Shown here: positions 26,885-35,030 of the stretch, piece after piece
Layout of the letters: each line of letters starts with the position of its first letter
Position numbering within the stretch: the first letter of the stretch is position 1
IMG/VR virus record: IMGVR_UViG_3300025128_004839
Location: 1-35,236 of that record
Strand: one strand, 5' to 3'
DNA: 35,236 nucleotides
Source of the DNA: a virus
Taxonomy: Duplodnaviria > Caudoviricetes
Notes under the pieces: model-generated
What the model was told of the DNA's origin: nothing
What the model saw: the letters and a program-made list of their open reading frames with translations, nothing else
Databases searched by the model: none
Position numbers and translations under genes: made by a program

Positions 26885-26945
26885 CGTAAGGTGTTGTCAA
26901 TAAAGGACTTATGGGCGCGGCCCCGGCCCCGAAAAAAAATTTCAA
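26885..26945. repeat. Palindromic element, copy 1
   Basis: TAAG-N17-CTTA starting 26887, then GC-rich CCCCGGCCC and an A-tract. Confidence 0.9.
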
Positions 26946-26964
26946 GCGAAAAGCAGAAAAAAGT

Positions 26965-27104
26965 TGCCTCCCTGTCGGACTTGACCCAGACTGCGGACTC
27001 TCGTCCCCGTTCGAACTCTCGCCCTCATCAAATAGGACTCTCGCTCAGTCGTAGTTTTTCCCACCTTTGCGGGTGTTCTGGAGTATGTCCCCGACAGGGA
27101 AGCA
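26965..27104 (-). ncRNA. Putative 140-nt structured RNA
   Basis: 14-bp closing helix TGCTTCCCTGTCGG/CCGACAGGGAGGCA, inner CCAGA/TCTGG, three CGAGAGT motifs, 3' T-tract. Confidence 0.65.
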
Positions 27105-27109
27105 TTGTA

Positions 27110-27190
27110 TGGTGGAGGTGGAGGGATTCGAACCCTCGTCCTAATAGTTCCCGTGTAGGGTCTTACTAGTCGAACAACCGAAACACCCCC
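27110..27190 (-). ncRNA. Mini-tmRNA: tRNA-like domain only (81 nt)
   Basis: GGGGGTG/CACCTCC-A-CCA acceptor with G3:U70, stemless D-loop ending TTCGA, capped helix 2, GAC linker, GAGGG-TTCGAAT-CCCTC T-arm. Confidence 0.8.
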
Positions 27191-27271
27191 GAAAGGAGAG
27201 CTTGCTTCCCGTGGTTAGCTCACCCACGCTTTCTTTATAGTGGGGAAGGGGCTACCTCCCCCACTCGGACC

Positions 27272-27496
27272 TTACAGCCCTTGGGTTGCCTTATGGGCAG
27301 CCGTAGCCCCCACATGGCGACCTTCGGACCACTCCCGAGGGAGCGCACGACGAAGGCTCTTGTAAGCCTCCAGCGCGTGGTCACATGCTTCCTGAGAAGC
27401 AGTGCCGTCCTTGTAGAGGTCAGCGAAAAGCTCACCGACCTGAATGCTAAGGCCCTGAATCTTGGCCTCAGTCTTGTTTGTGGCGAAATCGCCCAT
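27272..27496 (-). CDS. Hypothetical protein (74 aa), probably co-transcribed with the RNA genes
   Basis: AAGGAG Shine-Dalgarno before MGDFATNK, promoter at 27563-27591. Confidence 0.75.
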   Translation of the reverse strand: MGDFATNKTEAKIQGLSIQVGELFADLYKDGTASQEACDHALEAYKSLRRALPREWSEGRHVGATAAHKATQGL

Positions 27497-27608
27497 AGTA
27501 GTCTCCTTTGCAAAGAGGTTAGAAGTTGAGGGAGTTGAACCCGTCCCTCGTTCGGGTGTATCATTATACCATACTGAGGTCAGCTTGTCAAGCATGGTCT
27601 TCCAAATA

Positions 27609-27851
27609 TTATTCATAGGACTCATCCATTCCGAAGCCAGCAGAAGCGAGAGCGGACTCATCGTCCCAATCCTCACGCGGCTCATCGTCCACATCCCAAC
27701 CCTCATAGAAGGTGTTGAGGTACTTGATAGCTTCCGCGTCCACATCAGGAGCGGGGAGCCCGTTTTCGTGGAGGTAAGACAGAACGCCGTAGAGGTGGTG
27801 AGCAAACTTGCCATCGGACAGGTCCATGACGATATCGAAGGGGTTATTCAT
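27609..27851 (-). CDS. Acidic hypothetical protein
   Basis: Leaderless, C-terminal DDESALASAGFGMDESYE. Confidence 0.8.
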   Translation of the reverse strand: MNNPFDIVMDLSDGKFAHHLYGVLSYLHENGLPAPDVDAEAIKYLNTFYEGWDVDDEPREDWDDESALASAGFGMDESYE

Positions 27852-27896
27852 GCGTGTATTATACCAAAGGTTAGAGGGAATGTCAAGCGTTAGCTC

Positions 27897-27971
27897 TTAA
27901 TTTTTCGGAGGTTTTATTCCGAAGAGGGCTGCGTGACGCACCCAAAAGGAGTAGTTTTTGATTGCTTTCAT
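27897..27971 (-). CDS. Micro-protein (24 aa)
   Basis: TATAAT-N6-ATG, MKAIKNYSFWVRHAALFGIKPPKN. Confidence 0.55.
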   Translation of the reverse strand: MKAIKNYSFWVRHAALFGIKPPKN

Positions 27972-28030
27972 GCCCCTATTATACCACGGTTTTAGCCCAT
28001 TGCAAGAAATACTTTGAGAAAACTTTCTGT

Positions 28031-28093
28031 CGTAAGGTGCTGTGAACACAGGACTTAGGGCCTCGCGCCCCGGCCCCAAAAAATTTTTGCAAG
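28031..28093. repeat. Palindromic element, copy 2
   Basis: TAAG-N17-CTTA starting 28033 plus the GC and A tracts. Confidence 0.9.
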
Positions 28094-28241
28094 CACAAAA
28101 GAGAGAAAAGGTGGGGAGAGTGTTACTGCTTTCCAAGTGGCCGAAGCCAAGCGTTGAGCGGATCGAACACCCTCCCCTAAAAGGTGAGGAGGATCAGTAG
28201 GCTTCGCGTGTCACCTACTGCCTCCCCCCTTCCCAGTGGGC

Positions 28242-28430
28242 CTAGCCCTTGGGGATGTAAGCGTTCAAGCCTACCGTGACGGGCTTACCGTCAACCATCG
28301 CCGTCGTGGAGATGTTGCCACCGCTTGAAGCGACCAGCATCGTCTTACCAGACTTGGACGGGCGAAGAGACACAGGGGCCTCGATTACCAGCGTTGATAC
28401 GCCGTTCGTTTCCTTGATTGAAACATTCAT
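28242..28430 (-). CDS. Small conserved hypothetical protein
   Basis: GAGGT Shine-Dalgarno, PSKSGKTMLVASSGGN..GLNAY. Confidence 0.75.
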   Translation of the reverse strand: MNVSIKETNGVSTLVIEAPVSLRPSKSGKTMLVASSGGNISTTAMVDGKPVTVGLNAYIPKG

Positions 28431-28469
28431 AAAATTACCTCGTAGAGAGAGAAAGGGAAAAGGGGAAAA

Positions 28470-28784
28470 TTAAGCCGACCACTCATCGTGGAGGTCAGCG
28501 TTTACGCAGATATCGCGTTCGATACCCAAGCCAAGCGGGACTTGGATCGACTCAAGCTGCGAGAGGGAGACGTATCCCCACTCAGGCGAACCAAAGCCGA
28601 GATCACACAGGCCGAAGAGGAGCCAGTCCCCGTCTACCTGCTCGGAGCCTTCCACGATCTGCCAACTCTGGGCACCCATGGGGTTGAAGAATCGGACCAC
28701 GATCTTCTTCTCGTCGCAAGGGGTGTCCTCGGTGGAGTAGAGAGCGGGAAGGGCGTTCTTGATCTTTTCAGTGAGTAGTTGCAT
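28470..28784 (-). CDS. DUF2958 family protein
   Basis: LPALYS, VVRFFNP, LFGLCDLGFGSPEWGYVSLSQL, GLGIERD. Confidence 0.85.
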   Translation of the reverse strand: MQLLTEKIKNALPALYSTEDTPCDEKKIVVRFFNPMGAQSWQIVEGSEQVDGDWLLFGLCDLGFGSPEWGYVSLSQLESIQVPLGLGIERDICVNADLHDEWSA

Positions 28785-28815
28785 GTGAGTATTATACCAT
28801 GAAAGGAGGTAGATG

Positions 28816-29238
28816 TCAAGCCTTGAAGGCGCGAATTCCGTCAGGGACGGCAGAAAGGTTCTCGTCGCAATCGTCGAAGAAATAGGTTCGGTGAGTCTCC
28901 TTCAGCATAGACAGGATCTCAGCCTTGTATGCAGGGATCTCGAATCCACGATCACCAACGCAAAAGACATACTCTGCATCAATACCGTAACGCTCCAAGA
29001 GAGTGCGGATAGCGCGGTAGACGATGGAGTTCCTAGCCGTGAGGACATACACACGGTGGCCTTCTTGTTGCACAGTAATAGCGAACTGGACGAGGGACCG
29101 AGGCTTAGACTCCTTGAGGAGCTTATCGGTGTCTGCAAATTCGACATAGCGAGCGTGGCCCTTGGCTGACTCGATTTCTTGTGCAGTAGTCTCGAACAGG
29201 GTTCCGTCGAGATCAAATACGAAGGCTTTCTTTTTCAT
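28816..29238 (-). CDS. HAD-superfamily phosphatase
   Basis: FDLDGTL, LTAR, K, FFDD motifs, leaderless start MKKKAF. Confidence 0.85.
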   Translation of the reverse strand: MKKKAFVFDLDGTLFETTAQEIESAKGHARYVEFADTDKLLKESKPRSLVQFAITVQQEGHRVYVLTARNSIVYRAIRTLLERYGIDAEYVFCVGDRGFEIPAYKAEILSMLKETHRTYFFDDCDENLSAVPDGIRAFKA

Positions 29239-29269
29239 GCGTGTATTATACCAAAGACAGGGGAGGATG

Positions 29270-29392
29270 TCAAGAGATTTTGACGGTTTTTCCTCCGCTG
29301 TTGATCCACCAGTGATACCACTGGGCATTGGTCCAGTAGGCAGAGCAGACAGGGGGGACGGGGAAGATTGCGTTATCGGGGAGAGTGTTCAT
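29270..29392 (-). CDS. Small Trp-rich protein (40 aa, not in the ORF track)
   Basis: TATAAT-N6-ATG, MNTLPDNAIFPVPPVCSAYWTNAQWYHWWINSGGKTVKIS. Confidence 0.65.
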   Translation of the reverse strand: MNTLPDNAIFPVPPVCSAYWTNAQWYHWWINSGGKTVKIS

Positions 29393-29452
29393 GCATATAT
29401 TATACCACAGAATCCGAGAATGTCAAGCGTTAGCTTTAAAAAAACTGAGTGT

Positions 29453-29511
29453 CCTAAGTGCTTGTCAACACAGGACTTAGGGGGCTTCGCCCCGGCCCGA
29501 AATAAAAAAAA
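29453..29511. repeat. Palindromic element, copy 3
   Basis: CCTAAGT-N15-ACTTAGG, TAAG at 29455. Confidence 0.9.
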
Positions 29512-29545
29512 TGCCCCAAGTGCCTACACACAAAGCACTTGGGGC
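29500..29545 (-). terminator. Terminator
   Basis: GCCCCAAGTGC/GCACTTGGGGC 11-bp stem plus T-tract on the - strand. Confidence 0.75.
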
Positions 29546-29558
29546 GATCCGCTAATTT

Positions 29559-29876
29559 CTAGCGGAGAAAAGCCTTGACAGGGGCCGAAGAATCGACATC
29601 AATACCCATCGAAGAACACCACTCCTTATATTCTTCGGACATCCTGCCAAGGTCATATGTTGTATTGTACGTTTCTACTGTGCGACCAGCAGAGGCACGA
29701 ACGGGCGAGGTGGTGACTACCTCACCGTCACCAAACTGGGGATGATTGTATACCTTCCCCGTCAACCGCATTTCCCTAAGTTCGGGAGCTTGGTATGGAT
29801 TAGCTTCCCCGACAATAGCCCACTCTTCAATGCGCGGCGTAAGTTCGTAACAAGCGAAGTAGTCACCGTGATCCAT
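29559..29876 (-). CDS. Conserved phage hypothetical protein
   Basis: NPYQAPE..GKVYNHPQFGDG..TTS, TAATG-coupled start. Confidence 0.75.
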   Translation of the reverse strand: MDHGDYFACYELTPRIEEWAIVGEANPYQAPELREMRLTGKVYNHPQFGDGEVVTTSPVRASAGRTVETYNTTYDLGRMSEEYKEWCSSMGIDVDSSAPVKAFLR

Positions 29877-30187
29877 TAGGCTTCTGCCTCCTTCTTGGCG
29901 TTTTCCTTGCGCCAAGCGTCATTCTCAGCAGCCTTTACCTTTTGCTCCTCACGGGCAAGGACAAGAGCCTTATCGAGGACGTTCTTTAGCTCAACAATGC
30001 GAGCCTCGACATCAGGGCAGAAGAATGTCAACTCTTCCTCGGTCTGATAACCTTTGTCTGAGCCATCCCAAGAGTATTCAAGGATGCCAGCTTTCAGAGT
30101 GAACCATCCGTCCTTCTCTTCTGGGTTCCAAGCGTTCTTAGAGACTGAGGCTTCAAACTTGCCTACGTTGTGCATATCAACTTTCAT
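29876..30187 (-). CDS. Hypothetical protein
   Basis: ORF in the operon. Confidence 0.75.
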   Translation of the reverse strand: MKVDMHNVGKFEASVSKNAWNPEEKDGWFTLKAGILEYSWDGSDKGYQTEEELTFFCPDVEARIVELKNVLDKALVLAREEQKVKAAENDAWRKENAKKEAEA

Positions 30188-30189
30188 AA

Positions 30190-30435
30190 TTAGCCTTCCA
30201 TTTCGTTAGCGTAATCGGTGTAGAAATCATCGAACGCATCACGCTCGGTGTATTCTGGTTCTAGTTCTTCTGCAAGCTCACGCTCGCACTCTTCTTGCCA
30301 AAGCTCGGCAAGGAGTTCTTTGAGTTCATCATCTTCGACGATCTCCTCTTGATGGCCTTGGGCCTCAAGGAGTTCGGCTTCTTGATGGGCGAGGTACTCG
30401 TCGTGCTGGTCGGCACTTGTTTCGATGTCTTTCAT
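30190..30435 (-). CDS. Extremely acidic small protein (81 aa)
   Basis: Leaderless start MKDIETS, very E/D-rich. Confidence 0.75.
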   Translation of the reverse strand: MKDIETSADQHDEYLAHQEAELLEAQGHQEEIVEDDELKELLAELWQEECERELAEELEPEYTERDAFDDFYTDYANEMEG

Positions 30436-30478
30436 GGGTTCCATTATATCAGGTGTTTGGGTGAATGTCAAGGGGTTA

Positions 30479-30676
30479 CTAGCCAAAAATTTCATCTTGG
30501 CAGGACTGGCACATACCAGAGATCTGGTATTCCTTCTCGGAAACCTCATCCTTGAAGGACTTCGCAACACCATCACAGGTGGTGCATAACGCCTCAAGAA
30601 CCATTTGGGGACGGCTCTTGCCAGTGATGGAGGTGAGTAGGGACTCGATTTCGTGGTGTTTCTGAGTAGCTTTCAT
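30479..30676 (-). CDS. Small zinc-finger protein (65 aa)
   Basis: CTTC...EYQISGMCQSCQD, leaderless start MKATQK. Confidence 0.8.
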   Translation of the reverse strand: MKATQKHHEIESLLTSITGKSRPQMVLEALCTTCDGVAKSFKDEVSEKEYQISGMCQSCQDEIFG

Positions 30677-30875
30677 GTGTGTATTATACCAGATGTTTAG
30701 GGGTTTGTCAAGGGGAAGGGGAAGTTTTTTTTCAGTGTCCAGTGGGGTTTCGCCTTTCGGCGGTAGGACATCCCGTGTCTCACGGGCCATCTCTCGCGTG
30801 TGTCATGCCCCTATTATACCACATTTTTCGCCTTTGTCAAGTGTTGGGTCTTGGTTTTTTTCTTTTTCTTATCGT

Positions 30876-30937
30876 CGTAAGTACCTGTCAACAAAGGACT
30901 TAGGGGCTTGCGTCCGGCGCGAAAAAAAATTTGCAAG
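30876..30937. repeat. Palindromic element, copy 4
   Basis: TAAG-N17-CTTA starting 30878. Confidence 0.9.
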
Positions 30938-30940
30938 AAC

Positions 30941-30976
30941 AAAATAAAAAAAGCGTGACCCCTAGGGAGACCACGC
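30941..30976 (-). terminator. Terminator
   Basis: GCGTGG...TCACGC stem followed by T7-A-T4. Confidence 0.75.
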
Positions 30977-31032
30977 CAGTAATATACTGCCCTAGCAGGT
31001 TGTGGATATGACCCCCACAACAGGGCAAAAGA

Positions 31033-31255
31033 GGAAGGCAACGAACAGTGGGACTTACTTTATTACCCACACCCAGCGGCTAATTCTTAGGCATTAGCAG
31101 CGTATTTAACTGTAGTTCTTTTTCACTAGGCGACCCGCACAAAGGCTTCTCTGGCACTAGCCCGTCTTTCTACCCGTGTGCAGTTCGAGGCCCCTTCCAG
31201 TTACCGAAGGGATTACCTGATGCTCTGCCGAGGTTTCGAACCCTCGACACCTTCC
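31033..31255 (-). ncRNA. Putative 223-nt structured RNA
   Basis: Closing helix GGAAGGTG/TGCCTTCC around about six hairpins, no ORF of 60 aa or more on this strand. Confidence 0.6.
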
Positions 31256-31262
31256 AAATTTT

Positions 31263-31356
31263 CAATCCCCCCAAGGGTGAGGTCTAAGCAATCGCTCGCC
31301 TTCTTCCCTTGGGGACGCTCTGGGCCTACATGCTATTTATACTCGCCCAGTCGAGT
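31263..31356 (-). ncRNA. Pistol-like self-cleaving ribozyme
   Basis: ACTCG-ACTGGG-CGAGT (P1), ATAAATAG, GTAG, GCCCAG pseudoknot, AGCG, P3 TCCCCAAGGG/CCCTTGGGGG. P2 is imperfect. Confidence 0.6.
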
Positions 31357-31362
31357 CGGGAA

Positions 31363-31593
31363 CTACTTACCCATGTAGCGGTGGTTCACACCGTTACGGG
31401 TCACGAACTGCCGAGAGTTCATGTAGTGGCGGTTCCACGCCTTCTTGCAAGCGTTGAGCGAACCCGTGTAGGTGTTGCTCTGGCTTTGCAGGTCAAAGAT
31501 GGTATAGACCGCGCTGGACGCGCAACCGTTACCCACCCGAATCATAACAGCGTTCTGGTTCGAACGCACGACGTTGGTGATGCTAGAAAGCAT
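31363..31593 (-). CDS. Hypothetical protein
   Basis: AGGAG Shine-Dalgarno, promoter at 31642-31670. Confidence 0.7.
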   Translation of the reverse strand: MLSSITNVVRSNQNAVMIRVGNGCASSAVYTIFDLQSQSNTYTGSLNACKKAWNRHYMNSRQFVTRNGVNHRYMGK

Positions 31594-31666
31594 AGTTTAA
31601 ATCTCCTATAGGAAGAAAGGGGTTAGTGAATTGGAGAGGACATTATACCATGCCCTCTCCAGTTTG

Positions 31667-32038
31667 TCAAGCCTCTACCGACAATTCGTCAGAGGATTCC
31701 ACGAGGCCGTTGATGACCTGAGCCATCTGCACCTCGATCTCAGTCTTCCGCAGTTCAGCGGTTGACAGCGTAGCCTCAGCGTCAAGGCGTTCGGCTTCGA
31801 TCTTCTCGATCCAAGCGTCATGCTTTGCCACACGGGCGTTGAAGGACTGGGGACCGTCCCCTAGACCTTTCTTTGCTTCACGGATATCCTTCCGCAGAGC
31901 ATCAAGCTCCTCAACAAGAGGGGCTACGGCAGGGTTGCTCATGGCATCCTGCTTCGCTTGCTTCACCTTGAGGCGAGAGAGCTTTGCCTCTGTCTCAGCG
32001 ATGATTTCAGCGGGTGTGCGTTGCTTACGCTCACTCAT
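31667..32038 (-). CDS. Coiled-coil hypothetical protein
   Basis: AGGAG Shine-Dalgarno, promoter at 32100-32128. Confidence 0.8.
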   Translation of the reverse strand: MSERKQRTPAEIIAETEAKLSRLKVKQAKQDAMSNPAVAPLVEELDALRKDIREAKKGLGDGPQSFNARVAKHDAWIEKIEAERLDAEATLSTAELRKTEIEVQMAQVINGLVESSDELSVEA

Positions 32039-32124
32039 GGTTAGTATCTCCTAAAAGATGGAAAAGGTAGTGAGGGACTGTCCCTCGTAATGTCCTCCCA
32101 TTATACCATGGAAGGGGGAGTTTG

Positions 32125-32244
32125 TCAAGCCTTCTTTGTCAGAAGATCTTGGAAATCGCCACAACCTTGGGCGAAGTCCTCTGCGGCTTGCAGAGAGGTG
32201 AAAGTGACAGGAGCAGAGTGGTAACGAACTACGATGAACTTCAT
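32125..32244 (-). CDS. Small protein (39 aa, not in the ORF track)
   Basis: TATAAT-N6-ATG, MKFIVVRYHSAPVTFTSLQAAEDFAQGCGDFQDLLTKKA. Confidence 0.65.
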   Translation of the reverse strand: MKFIVVRYHSAPVTFTSLQAAEDFAQGCGDFQDLLTKKA

Positions 32245-32283
32245 GGGTGTATTATACCAAAAAGGTAGGGGGATGTCAAGGGG

Positions 32284-32418
32284 TTAGTCTGCAAAATCGA
32301 GAGCAATTTCAGCAGCGCAGGACTTGCAGATGATGGATGCGCCCCAGTCATCGCTCACCTCATTGGTTGCGGTGACCTGACCACAGGCATCACACAGTAG
32401 CATCTCTTCCTTGTTCAT
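32284..32418 (-). CDS. Zinc-ribbon micro-protein (44 aa, not in the ORF track)
   Basis: TATAAT-N6-ATG, CDAC...CKSC. Confidence 0.7.
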   Translation of the reverse strand: MNKEEMLLCDACGQVTATNEVSDDWGASIICKSCAAEIALDFAD

Positions 32419-32478
32419 GGGTGTATTATATCACAAAAAAAGTAGGCTGTCAAGGGGGTGGAGTGATTTATTTTCTGA

Positions 32479-32542
32479 CGTAAGTGCTTGTCAACACAGG
32501 ACTTAGGGCATTTCGCCCCGGCCCTTCCCAAAATTTTTCAAG
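32479..32542. repeat. Palindromic element, copy 5
   Basis: TAAG-N17-CTTA starting 32481. Confidence 0.9.
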
Positions 32543-32544
32543 CC

Positions 32545-32703
32545 CTAATCTTCTAAATCCATAATAGTCTGCATGAATTTCCAGATGGTAGGGTAGAGCT
32601 TTTTGAACTCATCCGCAGCTTGATCATTCATCCATGCAACGCCATGCTCCCAGTCAGTCTGGATAGCGTCAGACAGTAGCTCTTGAATCTCTTCAATGCT
32701 CAT
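32545..32703 (-). CDS. Small acidic protein (52 aa, not in the ORF track)
   Basis: ATGA-coupled, MSIEEIQELLSDAIQTDWEHGVAWMND... Confidence 0.65.
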   Translation of the reverse strand: MSIEEIQELLSDAIQTDWEHGVAWMNDQAADEFKKLYPTIWKFMQTIMDLED

Positions 32704-32906
32704 CGGTGAAGACGCTTCATCATTTCCTTAGACTTGGCTTCGAAAGCCTCTTGCCATTCTCCACCCATGGAGATAGCGAAGTTCTTAAGGGTTTGGATCT
32801 GGTCACGACCAGCGTTGTAGGAGCGACTGTCATCGCTCATCATGTAGAACCAATCGGCATAACCGAGTTGGGTGGTGAATTCTTCAAATGTCATTTTTTC
32901 TTTCAT
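32700..32906 (-). CDS. Hypothetical protein
   Basis: Leaderless, DWFYMMSDD.RSYNAG motif. Confidence 0.8.
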   Translation of the reverse strand: MKEKMTFEEFTTQLGYADWFYMMSDDSRSYNAGRDQIQTLKNFAISMGGEWQEAFEAKSKEMMKRLHR

Positions 32907-32943
32907 GTGTATATTATACCAAGTGTTTAGGGGGTTGTCAAGC

Positions 32944-33276
32944 CTAGTCGCAGTAAAATTTCAAATCTTTGTGATCGAAATCATCACGGCCCATCTTCTG
33001 GATCAAAGCCTCCACGACATCGGGGGACTGCCAGCCAGCCACCTGATCCATAGACGTAAGCGGGAGGAAGTTATCATCCTCATCCAACACCGCAACCTCG
33101 TAGGTCGTGGGGAAGTGGTGCGATCCCTCAGGACCAAATCGCTCACCGACCATCCAAGAGGCGTAGTGACCAGCACCAAAGCCGACCGACAGCTTGTAGC
33201 CGTGGTGGGAAAAGGTGAACTGCTTCAGACCAGCGCGAGGGGAGGTGACAGTGATGGTGTTCTCTTTCGTCTTCAT
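32944..33276 (-). CDS. Hypothetical protein
   Basis: Leaderless, GYKLSV..GHY..YEVAV..DQVAGWQS. Confidence 0.8.
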   Translation of the reverse strand: MKTKENTITVTSPRAGLKQFTFSHHGYKLSVGFGAGHYASWMVGERFGPEGSHHFPTTYEVAVLDEDDNFLPLTSMDQVAGWQSPDVVEALIQKMGRDDFDHKDLKFYCD

Positions 33277-33318
33277 GTGTATATTATACCAGAGTTTTGG
33301 GAAATGTCAAGTGCTTTC

Positions 33319-33453
33319 TTAGAAAAAATCAGGAACGCACTGAAGGTAACTGCCAAGGCGAGCAAACAGGATGCCAGCCTCACGGACTACCGCGCCCACA
33401 AAATCGTTGAAGAGGAGGACGAGTGCTATGATTGTGATGTTCTTTGCTTTCAT
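33319..33453 (-). CDS. Small hydrophobic protein (44 aa, not in the ORF track)
   Basis: TATAAT-N6-ATG, MKAKNITIIALVLLFNDFVG... Confidence 0.65.
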   Translation of the reverse strand: MKAKNITIIALVLLFNDFVGAVVREAGILFARLGSYLQCVPDFF

Positions 33454-33624
33454 GTGTGTATTATACCAGAGTTTTGGAGAATGTCAAGGGGAAAAAGCTT
33501 TTTCTGATACGACATTGTTCCGCGTCAGGCAGAGGCTTTGTTCCCCTCGTCTTGTGCGTCTATTATACCACAATCTCAGCCAATGTCAAGCCTTGGGCCT
33601 GTGTTTTTTTGAGTTTTTTTGTGA

Positions 33625-33675
33625 CGTAAGCCCCTGTCAATAAAGGACTTAAGGGCTTCGCCCCGGCCCTTTTTC
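33625..33675. repeat. Palindromic element, copy 6
   Basis: TAAG-N17-CTTA starting 33627. Confidence 0.9.
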
Positions 33676-33764
33676 AAAAAATCCACATAAAAATGCAGAG
33701 AATCCAAATACAGAGAAAATAAATCACCACGCAGGACATGACCCCACGGAAGAAATCAAGTCCA

Positions 33765-34244
33765 TCATCGGGAGTGTTTCGCATATAGCTTCCTCACATT
33801 TTTAATCCAGTGCTGATTCAGTCCCGTAGGATCGTTATCCGCTCCAACGGGGCAGTAACGCTTGCCAAGGAATACCACAAACTCACCCTTAGAACCAGCC
33901 TTGACCCAACGGTCGTAGTTCTTCTGGACAGTGCAAGCACACTCGCCAGCCTGACGGCGATAGCCTCGATCCTTCGCATACTTGCTCAGGCATCCATACT
34001 CACGGCCAGCACGACCATTCTCAGCGTAACGAATAGCTGAGACGTAAGGTGCAAGCTTTGCACGAAGCTCAGGGCGAATGTTCACCTTGATAGCGTCATC
34101 AAAGAGAGCAGCCTTAGCCGTACCGTCTTTCTTGACGATGACATCCCGATAGGTTTGGGCACTAGCAACGCCACCAATGGCGACGATTGCGATGGTAAGC
34201 CAGAGGGCATAGCCCAACAGTGTAGTAGCGATGATTTTGATCAT
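33765..34244 (-). CDS. Exported lysozyme-fold/glucosaminidase-like protein
   Basis: Hydrophobic N-terminus, AIRYAENG (putative catalytic Glu), YCPVGADNDPTGLNQHWIKNV, ATGA-coupled start. Confidence 0.6.
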   Translation of the reverse strand: MIKIIATTLLGYALWLTIAIVAIGGVASAQTYRDVIVKKDGTAKAALFDDAIKVNIRPELRAKLAPYVSAIRYAENGRAGREYGCLSKYAKDRGYRRQAGECACTVQKNYDRWVKAGSKGEFVVFLGKRYCPVGADNDPTGLNQHWIKNVRKLYAKHSR

Positions 34245-34468
34245 AGGGAGCAATCTCCTTCTAGGACTTCGATTTGTTGGATGAGTTCAGCGATGGTGTG
34301 ACCATCCCAATACATCTCATCAGCCAGAGGCAGATATTTGTGCATATTGATACCTGCCACATGGCAAGCGTCTAGGAACTCGTCAAAGGTGAGATCTAGG
34401 CCAAGAGAGGCCAAGTGATCAGCACCTTGGAAGGCGCGTTCGATTGCAGTGTTTTCGTTGATGTTCAT
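34241..34468 (-). CDS. Acidic hypothetical protein
   Basis: Leaderless ORF. Confidence 0.75.
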   Translation of the reverse strand: MNINENTAIERAFQGADHLASLGLDLTFDEFLDACHVAGINMHKYLPLADEMYWDGHTIAELIQQIEVLEGDCSL

Positions 34469-34516
34469 GTGTGTATTATACCAAAGTTTGAGTGAATGTC
34501 AAGAGGAAAGGCCGAT

Positions 34517-34828
34517 TTACTCAGCCGCTGTGCCAAAGCGGTCGATGTAGCTCTGAGGGATAGGCAGAGCATTGTGCTTGCAGTGAGCAAGGTAATCGTC
34601 GTAGTCTAGAGCGACCTTCTGAGCAGCACCTCTAGGCGTGTCAGTTGAGACAAGCACAGAGTTGCCGAAGGGCTCAACACTCACAGAGTAAGCATTGTGC
34701 TTCTTCTCCATGGAGATGTAAAGCTCACCAACCTTGAGGAAGGGAACTTGAGTGATGCCAACGACAGCACCCTTAGGGGAAGAGACGAGACCACGACGGT
34801 CAACAGTGATATTTTGAATTTCTTTCAT
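34517..34828 (-). CDS. Hypothetical protein
   Basis: Leaderless ORF. Confidence 0.75.
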   Translation of the reverse strand: MKEIQNITVDRRGLVSSPKGAVVGITQVPFLKVGELYISMEKKHNAYSVSVEPFGNSVLVSTDTPRGAAQKVALDYDDYLAHCKHNALPIPQSYIDRFGTAAE

Positions 34829-34983
34829 GTGTATATTATACTCTCTGGAGAGGGGTTTGTCAAGTGTTAGTTCTGTTTTTCTTGGGGGCTTTTTCTCTCT
34901 CGTCTTGTGCCCCCATTATACTATATTATCGACCAAATGCAAGCAATACTTGAGGGAAATTTTGAGATTTCTCTATGAATGTG

Positions 34984-35030
34984 CGTAAGTGTATGTAAAC
35001 AAAGGACTTAGGACATTTCTCGCCGGACGA
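34984..35030. repeat. Palindromic element, copy 7 (diverged flank)
   Basis: TAAG-N17-CTTA starting 34986. Confidence 0.85.

What the first reader, a model, noticed from the sequence alone, without database searches (positions are those of the whole stretch)
31263..31356. Pistol-like ribozyme between a small ORF and a large structured RNA
Seen: ACTCG ACTGGG CGAGT ATAAATAG CAT GTAG GCCCAG AGCG followed by a 10-bp P3 stem. Established: pistol ribozymes have P1 with a loop pseudoknot, a UAAAUAG linker, P2, a UUAR junction, the pseudoknot strand, then AGCG and P3. Deviations here are GUAG in place of UUAG and only 2 of 3 P2 pairs. The end of the upstream ORF (CTACATG) is complementary to CATGTAG, so an alternative fold could tie cleavage to translation. 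Inference: cleavage near 31266-31268 would generate the 5' end of the 223-nt RNA about 10 nt downstream.
Basis: partly seen in the sequence, partly recalled or inferred. Interest (0 to 1): 0.7.

Follow-up and report, generated by a model that had tools for sequence, protein, structure and literature searches.

The report
Pistol ribozyme heading new phage RNA
A marine T4-like phage carries a genuine pistol-type self-cutting RNA sequence right after a small conserved gene, and it likely cuts the transcript to free the gene's message from a folded 223-base RNA that matches no Rfam family and whose job is unknown.

Summary
The feature is real and lies on the minus strand. It scores above Rfam's Pistol cut-off (43.3 vs 34.5 bits) and sits in one unit: perfect early promoter, 76-aa gene, pistol, 223-nt structured RNA, terminator. 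The same gene is followed by a pistol core 2-10 nt after its stop in 51 of 70 distinct related sequences, with a covarying pseudoknot. The 'deviation' GUAG is matched at the cut site: all 9 G29 copies have A at +1, and 25 of 26 U29 copies have U, fitting the U29-U(+1) contact of solved structures (too few independent pairs for significance). The predicted cut is G31267|A31266. The downstream RNA is a distant member of a covarying 190-225-nt family without Rfam match; it follows the pistol in 15 of 50 relatives. Against a dedicated maturation role: other relatives have other cargo or almost none, and one copy of the RNA lacks a pistol. The proposed CTACATG switch reaches 7 bp in only 2 of 50. 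Cleavage is untested, and this copy's P2 is weak. This scan noted pistols beside structured RNAs in other phage genomes before. Verdict: known ribozyme class, new variant and context.

The parts
31642..31670 (-). sigma-70-type early promoter, 12/12 consensus with extended TG
   Evidence: one of 8 perfect-consensus minus-strand sites in 30000-33000 (10 promoter-like sites in all, 2.4 expected)
31602..31607 (-). ribosome-binding site AGGAGA
   Evidence: sequence
31363..31593 (-). 76-aa conserved early gene of unknown function (predicted four-strand sheet plus helix)
   Evidence: no PHROG; 278 relatives; no clear fold match
31262..31356 (-). pistol ribozyme (P1, pseudoknot, weak P2, 10-bp P3 with 28-nt insert)
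31316..31329 (-). catalytic core strand: G29 U30 A31 G32 G33, pseudoknot strand, G40 C41 G42
   Evidence: numbering by analogy to env25 pistol
31266..31267 (-). predicted cut site G|A (two-base junction between P3 and P2)
   Evidence: junction rule from PMC4604425
31033..31255 (-). 223-nt multi-branch RNA, distant member of a covarying family without Rfam match; first hairpin carries a tRNA-type T-loop sequence GUUCGAAA
   Evidence: relatives seen in contigs of 5 of 7 RNA libraries
30990..31025 (-). hairpin between the RNA and the terminator
   Evidence: folds
30945..30977 (-). intrinsic terminator (11-pair stem, T-run)

Best explanation
This is a pistol ribozyme that likely cuts the phage's early transcript between G31267 and A31266, which would split it into the mRNA of the 76-aa gene and a separate RNA of about 320 nt whose core is the conserved 223-nt structure. 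Shown: the sequence anatomy, the conserved position after the stop codon, the covariation of pistol and downstream RNA, and the promoter and terminator consensus. From established pistol chemistry: the mRNA piece would end in a 2',3'-cyclic phosphate and the RNA piece would start with a 5'-OH (PMC4604425). Inferred: that this copy cleaves despite its weak P2, with G29.A(+1) standing in for the U29.U(+1) contact; that the 5'-OH end and closing stem make the freed RNA stable (my knowledge of 5'-monophosphate-dependent decay, no call); and that the slot after this gene is an exchangeable RNA-cargo slot which the ribozyme uncouples from the message. The freed RNA most likely acts in trans early in infection as a protein-binding or decoy RNA; that last step is a guess.
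For: Rfam score above cut-off. All 6 first relatives and all 14 further core-bearing loci given to cmscan (14 of 20 loci; the other 6 had no core by my script or no gene) score above cut-off. Core 2-10 nt after the stop in 50 of 50 analysed, 51 of 70 distinct downstream sequences overall. The pseudoknot keeps 5-6 pairs in all of them, in 17 sequence combinations; pairs 2-6 never mismatch. P3 is followed by G-U or G-A in 47 of 50 by a script that did not score the site letters. U29-U(+1) wobble in crystal structures (PMC6795133); here G29/A 9 of 9, U29/U 25 of 26, C29/A 6 of 6; G29/A needs 6 changes on the gene tree, at least 3 forced. The middle P2 pair is A-U in the window and U-A in L002, and P3 shows compensatory changes. 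Downstream family: 21 of 38 pairs change on both sides against 2-5 in slid controls. A model built without the window's subtype finds 31262-31027 full length as best hit of the window (16.8 bits, rough E 3e-4; next 9.6 bits) and L001 likewise (19.4 bits). Two complete 130-kb genomes each hold one pistol and one such RNA, abutting. In 6 of 8 folded members of the larger subtype the closing stem reaches back to +2 or +3 of the cut product. Relatives of the RNA occur in contigs of 5 of 7 RNA libraries.
Against: No cleavage data. This copy's P2 has only 2 Watson-Crick pairs and its pseudoknot 5 of 6. The N29/N(+1) link rests on only 2-3 independent well-supported pairs (sign test p 0.25-0.5) and on three hand edits and one dropped row. 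The RNA family follows the pistol in only 15 of 50. Four relatives (L004, L033, L005, L040) have a T-run 6-33 nt after the cut, leaving no room for a cargo RNA. L008 has the RNA with no pistol upstream. 16 of 70 downstream sequences have neither pistol nor a cut-off end. The window RNA's link to the larger subtype is weak in bits, and L008 and L014 (both cut at the 3' side) did not hit that model. RNA libraries may hold DNA, and contigs cannot show ends.
Confidence: 0.6

Rival explanations
1. The pistol is active but serves the upstream message (a defined, protected 3' end, or insulation from whatever lies downstream); the release of the 223-nt RNA is a side effect.
For: The pistol travels with the gene (51 of 70) far more faithfully than with the RNA (15 of 50). 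It persists where a T-run follows within 6-33 nt (4 of 50) or where apparent coding sequence follows (L021). Polycistron processing and 3'-UTR effects are the roles already suggested for bacterial and phage ribozymes (PMC6765202 section 13).
Against: In the RNA-bearing lineages the RNA's closing stem starts 2-16 nt after the cut in 10 of 10 folded cases. Both new contigs found with the larger subtype's RNA pattern carry gene plus pistol upstream. This rival and the best reading are not exclusive.
Confidence: 0.22
2. This copy is a slow or dying pistol: P2 has decayed and the element mainly acts as a structured 3' spacer.
For: P2 2 of 4 pairs and pseudoknot 5 of 6. Lower Rfam score than many relatives (43 vs up to 69 bits). 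The pistol can be lost cleanly (L043 keeps the downstream element of L048/L039 without the pistol).
Against: G33, G40, C41, G42, purine 32 and the AAA linker are intact. The A.A at the pseudoknot end occurs in 13 of 50. U.U next to G29/A(+1) recurs in L002, L049 and L072 and in L015 as read by hand, and L002 keeps the middle P2 pair by a two-sided change. The lower score partly reflects the mis-aligned long P3.
Confidence: 0.1
3. One reading: the end of the gene (CUACAUG) pairs with P2/junction (CAUGUAG) and blocks cleavage unless a ribosome occupies the gene end.
For: 7-bp complement (0.6% by chance). In a pseudoknot-free model the forced helix (-47.1 kcal/mol) costs about the same as forced P1 (-46.5). 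Among the 9 G29 copies, 7 keep at least 5 bp, and L003 and L072 show matching changes on both strands (noticed after the fact).
Against: 7 bp in only 2 of 50 distinct sequences (both near-copies of the window); 38 of 50 have 4 bp or fewer; other windows of the same gene also reach 7 bp. Pairing probability 0.0002 in the ensemble (the model cannot form the true pseudoknot). The gene-side letters are the conserved Arg-Tyr-Met codons, so any G29 junction gains the match automatically. A simpler coupling exists: P1 starts 2-10 nt after the stop, within a terminating ribosome's reach (inference).
Confidence: 0.08

Closest known systems
Pistol self-cleaving ribozyme (Rfam RF02679; Harris et al. 2015, PMC4604425, parts 1-2 of 4 read; structural passages from PMC6795133, PMC7027511, PMC6154101)
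   Same: P1, pseudoknot, P2, P3, two-base cut junction, purine 32, G33, G40, C41, G42; location among phage genes, which Harris et al. report as typical.
   Different: Cut site G|A with G29 rather than G|U with U29; P2 with U.U and only two Watson-Crick pairs; P3 with a 28-nt structured insert; fixed position 2-10 nt after one conserved phage gene; followed by a 190-225-nt RNA family without Rfam match.
Theta ribozymes of gut phages (Kienbeck et al. 2024, PMC10879173; abstract and outline read)
   Same: A small phage ribozyme whose cut site abuts another non-coding RNA, proposed to mature it.
   Different: Theta ribozymes are HDV-like, lie 3' of tRNAs and would make tRNA 3' ends; here a pistol lies 5' of the RNA, would make a 5'-OH end, and the partner is not a tRNA.
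Ribozyme processing of polycistronic bacterial/phage transcripts (Weinberg et al. 2019, PMC6765202, section 13 read)
   Same: The proposed general role: cutting a transcript into pieces of different stability.
   Different: The review says the purpose is not yet defined; this cassette gives a concrete gene-ribozyme-RNA unit with natural gains, losses and cargo swaps.
Candidate structured RNAs of viruses and phages (Fremin et al. 2023, PMC10690425; passages read, 4 of 9 supplementary files searched)
   Same: Mined from the same kind of viral contigs by covariation.
   Different: Those candidates are at most 151 nt, so the whole 223-nt RNA is not one of them; a sub-domain could be, since several large supplements could not be opened.

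Membership tests
Pistol ribozyme (RF02679) | Covariance-model score above the curated gathering threshold | tested here: met
   43.3 bits vs 34.5
Pistol ribozyme (RF02679) | P1 stem whose loop forms a pseudoknot with the P2-P3 junction | tested here: met
   P1 5 bp; pseudoknot 5 of 6 pairs; 17 covarying combinations in 50 relatives
Pistol ribozyme (RF02679) | P3 stem | tested here: met
   10 bp; 8 inner pairs at probability 0.79-1.0; compensatory changes in L002
Pistol ribozyme (RF02679) | P2 stem | tested here: inconclusive
   Only 2 Watson-Crick pairs plus U.U and G.A in this copy; register supported by a two-sided change in L002 and by 3-4 pairs in most relatives
Pistol ribozyme (RF02679) | Strictly two-base junction between P3 and P2 holding the cut site (GU identity only modestly conserved) | tested here: met
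   G31267-A31266; GA in 22 and GU in 25 of 50 relatives; rule from PMC4604425
Pistol ribozyme (RF02679) | Active-site nucleotides purine 32, G33, G40, C41, G42 | tested here: met
   G31326, G31325, G31318, C31317, G31316; roles. The full list of 10 conserved bases is in a figure that is not held.
Pistol ribozyme (RF02679) | Mg2+-dependent site-specific self-cleavage giving 2',3'-cyclic phosphate and 5'-OH | not testable with these tools
   Needs an assay; only assembled contigs were available for RNA runs
Any Rfam family, for the 223-nt downstream RNA | Match to a curated covariance model | tested here: not met
   No match over the RNA body at E up to 10 in 30700-31800, apart from sub-threshold terminator-region hits; none in four members of the larger subtype at E up to 0.5
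Theta ribozyme | Minimal HDV-like fold with cut site next to a tRNA | tested here: not met
   Fold is pistol; no tRNA near 31000-31400

The most novel reading that the evidence does not exclude
The pistol is the dedicated maturation device of a new class of ornate phage RNA. It frees a 5'-OH RNA whose own 3' end then captures the ribozyme's P2 strand (6 of 8 folded members), driving product release and blocking re-ligation. The freed RNA acts as an early decoy of a host RNA-protein machine, in the same slot where other relatives place a tag-less mini-tmRNA. G29.A(+1) is a natural second solution to the pistol active-site contact.
Probability: 0.25. Interest if true: 0.75.

Novelty: new variant of a known kind. 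Interest (0 to 1): 0.5.

Why it matters
The biological job of bacterial and phage self-cleaving ribozymes is a standing open question (PMC6765202 section 13). Here one pistol sits in a compact, single-copy unit with a defined promoter, gene, cargo RNA and terminator, and nature supplies the controls: relatives with other cargo, with no cargo, with the pistol cleanly lost, and the RNA without a pistol. That makes 'mRNA end' versus 'RNA maturation' directly testable. The clade also gives a natural test of the 29/+1 contact of the pistol active site, and it brings to light a covarying 190-225-nt phage RNA family without Rfam match. The ribozyme class itself is known and common near phage genes, which caps the surprise.

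Tried and rejected
No whole genome is held for the window. Annotated phage records gave only short weak matches, 6-8% of the query. The window's downstream RNA was not found elsewhere in the 5 records behind L002-L006, all incomplete. A tmRNA-like tag frame in the RNA was considered and dropped: the window and L001 differ by a one-base indel upstream of the candidate frame, and the larger subtype lacks the stretch. RNase P, SRP, group I intron and 6S look-alikes were considered from recalled motifs only; none scored in Rfam. RNA contigs: none of the RNA-library contigs crosses 31266/31267 while an X8 contig spans it, but uncovered places prove nothing, and only one study (X2, two contigs ending at 31248) stops near the predicted 5' end without a loose end, so this is not counted as evidence of cleavage. 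The gene product has no PHROG family, no Atlas hit at 0.9 or more and no clear fold match (best Z 5.1), so no RNA-binding role can be claimed. Two P3-finding scripts misplaced many stems and were replaced (final version); one script crashed part-way. The one genome hit is a 5-kb contig with gene plus pistol in an assembled bin and was not taken as the host. L138 begins inside the RNA and says nothing about what lies upstream. Paper searches for the motifs and the arrangement found no description; the library lacks most subscription papers, including, as far as I saw, the 2015 discovery paper.

Full report
Setting. The window looks like part of a large phage genome: tRNA clusters, a UvsX-like recombinase and dCMP deaminase, and a right-hand region of small minus-strand genes with repeated perfect sigma-70 promoters. 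Four of five related records tested carry a T4-type Gp23 capsid gene above the Pfam cut-off, and two are complete at about 130 kb. The seven RNA runs that share sequence with the region are labelled marine or seawater. No whole genome is held for the window.

Observation. The finding lies on the minus strand and is as described. Rfam Pistol matches 31356-31302 at 43.3 bits against a cut-off of 34.5. The real element runs to 31262, because P3 (10 bp) encloses a 28-nt insert that the model skips. The unit reads: promoter 31670-31642 (12/12), RBS, 76-aa gene 31593-31363, six bases, pistol, G31267|A31266, a short leader, a 223-nt RNA 31255-31033, a hairpin, and a terminator at 30977-30945.

Conservation of the pistol. 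Relatives of the gene were fetched from viral contigs (6 and 24 loci) and metagenomes (the best 80 of 366). Of the 113 loci then held, 112 gave the gene; they collapse to 70 distinct downstream sequences, one of which is the window's own. 51 carry a pistol core by my script, 2 are cut short, 1 has a core with an insertion, and 16 carry something else. cmscan confirmed 6 of 6 and 14 of the 14 core-bearing loci among 20 given. In the 50 with a full P3, P1 starts 2-10 nt after the stop codon, the pseudoknot appears in 17 sequence combinations with pairs 2-6 never mismatched, and the A.A at its end, as in the window, occurs in 13.

The apparent deviations. Harris et al. (PMC4604425, parts 1-2 of 4 read) state that the cut-site GU is only modestly conserved while the two-base length is strict. 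A script that chose P3 by energy density and P2 pairing, not by the site letters, gave GU in 25, GA in 22 and other in 3 of 50. Solved structures pair U29 with U(+1) (PMC6795133, passage read). After three hand edits (L003, L076, L015) and dropping L113, four-base junctions split as U29/U 25, U29/A 1, G29/A 9, C29/A 6; five-base junctions have A 7 times and U once. G29/A needs 6 changes on the gene tree, at least 3 forced by starred branches, but only 2-3 independent pairs are well supported; none goes against the rule, and the sign test is not significant. So GUAG with G|A is best read as a recurring natural variant, not proven. P2 is weak here (C-G, A-U, U.U, G.A), but L002 keeps the middle pair as U-A. 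Purine 32, G33, G40, C41 and G42, whose roles are described in passages of PMC6154101 and PMC7027511, are intact.

The proposed switch. The 7-bp complement to the gene end is present, but only the window type and L001 reach 7 bp; 38 of 50 have 4 or fewer; its ensemble probability is 0.0002. In fairness, pseudoknot-free energies do not rule it out, and 7 of 9 G29 copies keep at least 5 bp, two of them with matching changes. The gene-side letters are conserved codons, so much of this comes free. I give it 0.08.

The downstream RNA. It has no Rfam match. Close relatives are L001, L014, L008 and part of L015, with two-sided changes in 8 of 44 predicted pairs among four sequences. A second, larger subtype follows the pistol in 11 of the 50 and in two more contigs found by RNA pattern. 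On 11 sequences its structure has 95.9% of cells paired and 21 of 38 pairs changing on both sides, against 2-5 pairs in slid controls (the structure was derived from this alignment, which favours it). A model from that subtype alone finds three further members at 113-185 bits. With filters off it picks the window's RNA, 31262-31027, full length, as the top hit of the window (16.8 bits, rough E 3e-4, next 9.6), and L001 at 19.4 bits; the truncated L008 and L014 do not hit. Shared parts are an A-rich leader, a closing stem, a first hairpin, a short stem followed by UC and an internal loop starting UAAU, and a last hairpin with a 13-base loop. I count the two subtypes as one family with moderate confidence. 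In two complete genomes there is one pistol and one such RNA each, abutting. In 6 of 8 folded members of the larger subtype the RNA's 3' end pairs with bases from +2 or +3 of the cut product, which are the ribozyme's own P2 strand; in the window the closing stem starts at about +12. Contigs from 5 of 7 RNA libraries cover relatives of the RNA, 3 of 7 cover part of the gene, and some variants keep pairs (A-U to G-C at 31094/31083); these are contigs, chosen by shared words, and may include DNA.

Limits of the maturation reading. The family follows the pistol in 15 of 50. Other relatives carry different structured elements, four have a T-run within 6-33 nt of the cut, three put a tag-less mini-tmRNA behind the gene without a pistol, L043 has lost the pistol and kept its cargo, and L008 has the RNA without a pistol. 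The steady partner of the ribozyme is the gene. The best reading is therefore a cutter that uncouples the message from an exchangeable cargo slot, and in this lineage frees the 223-nt RNA (0.6). Rivals: message-end function only (0.22), slow or dead copy (0.10), translation switch (0.08).

Comparison and novelty. It is a member of the pistol family on every sequence feature I could test, with P2 inconclusive in this copy and activity untested. Phage association is known, and transcript processing has been suggested but not defined (PMC6765202 section 13). Theta ribozymes (PMC10879173, abstract) are the nearest precedent for ribozyme-made ends of a phage RNA. Searches of the held library found no description of this cassette or RNA. 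Sub-domains could be among the candidates of PMC10690425, several of whose large supplements could not be opened. Earlier notes of this scan report pistols next to structured RNAs in other phage genomes (unchecked, not counted as support); the sequence look-up returned only two notes on palindromic repeats. Verdict: new variant of a known kind, interest 0.5.

Noticed in passing
window 27190-27110 (-); also L005 3629-3711, L006 4404-4486, L024/L026/L027 right after the same gene, and about a dozen further loci: An 81-83-nt tmRNA with only the tRNA-like domain, ending CCACCA (Rfam 63.2 bits). A tag-less form from phage DS6A that inhibits host tmRNA is already reported (passage in PMC11915505). 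In the window and in L024/L026/L027 it appears, by eye, to be preceded by a short H-type pseudoknot.
   Followed up: partly
window 26885-35026, seven copies: A repeat of about 45-70 nt with a dyad, upstream of early promoters (families D3/D4); earlier notes e1-9525499 and e1-9741901 describe look-alike boxes at phage cassette borders.
   Followed up: no
L043 just after 1555, compared with L039 and L048: Clean loss of the whole pistol between two copies of a four-base direct repeat, keeping the downstream element; a natural knockout or an assembly artefact.
   Followed up: partly
L077 after 1873: Pistol core with a hairpin of about 25 nt inserted in the normally fixed linker between P1 and P2, otherwise like L058.
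   Followed up: no
L022, L068, L096, L058, L072 (one type); L048, L039, L094, L043 (second); L046, L112 (third); L052, L054, L084, L089 and L055, L059, L060, L064, L067 (no pistol): Several other recurring structured-looking elements fill the same slot after the gene; the representatives scanned had no Rfam match other than pistol or tmRNA.
   Followed up: no
L087 about 2341-2380: Pistol followed directly by only the T-arm and CCACCA end of a tmRNA-like sequence.
   Followed up: no
window 31170-31140 (-): Within the 223-nt RNA, a nearly invariant purine-rich internal loop (AGAAA on one side, AGAGA on the other) recalls the interdigitated T-loop modules that bind tRNA elbows; the resemblance is recalled, not tested.
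   Followed up: no
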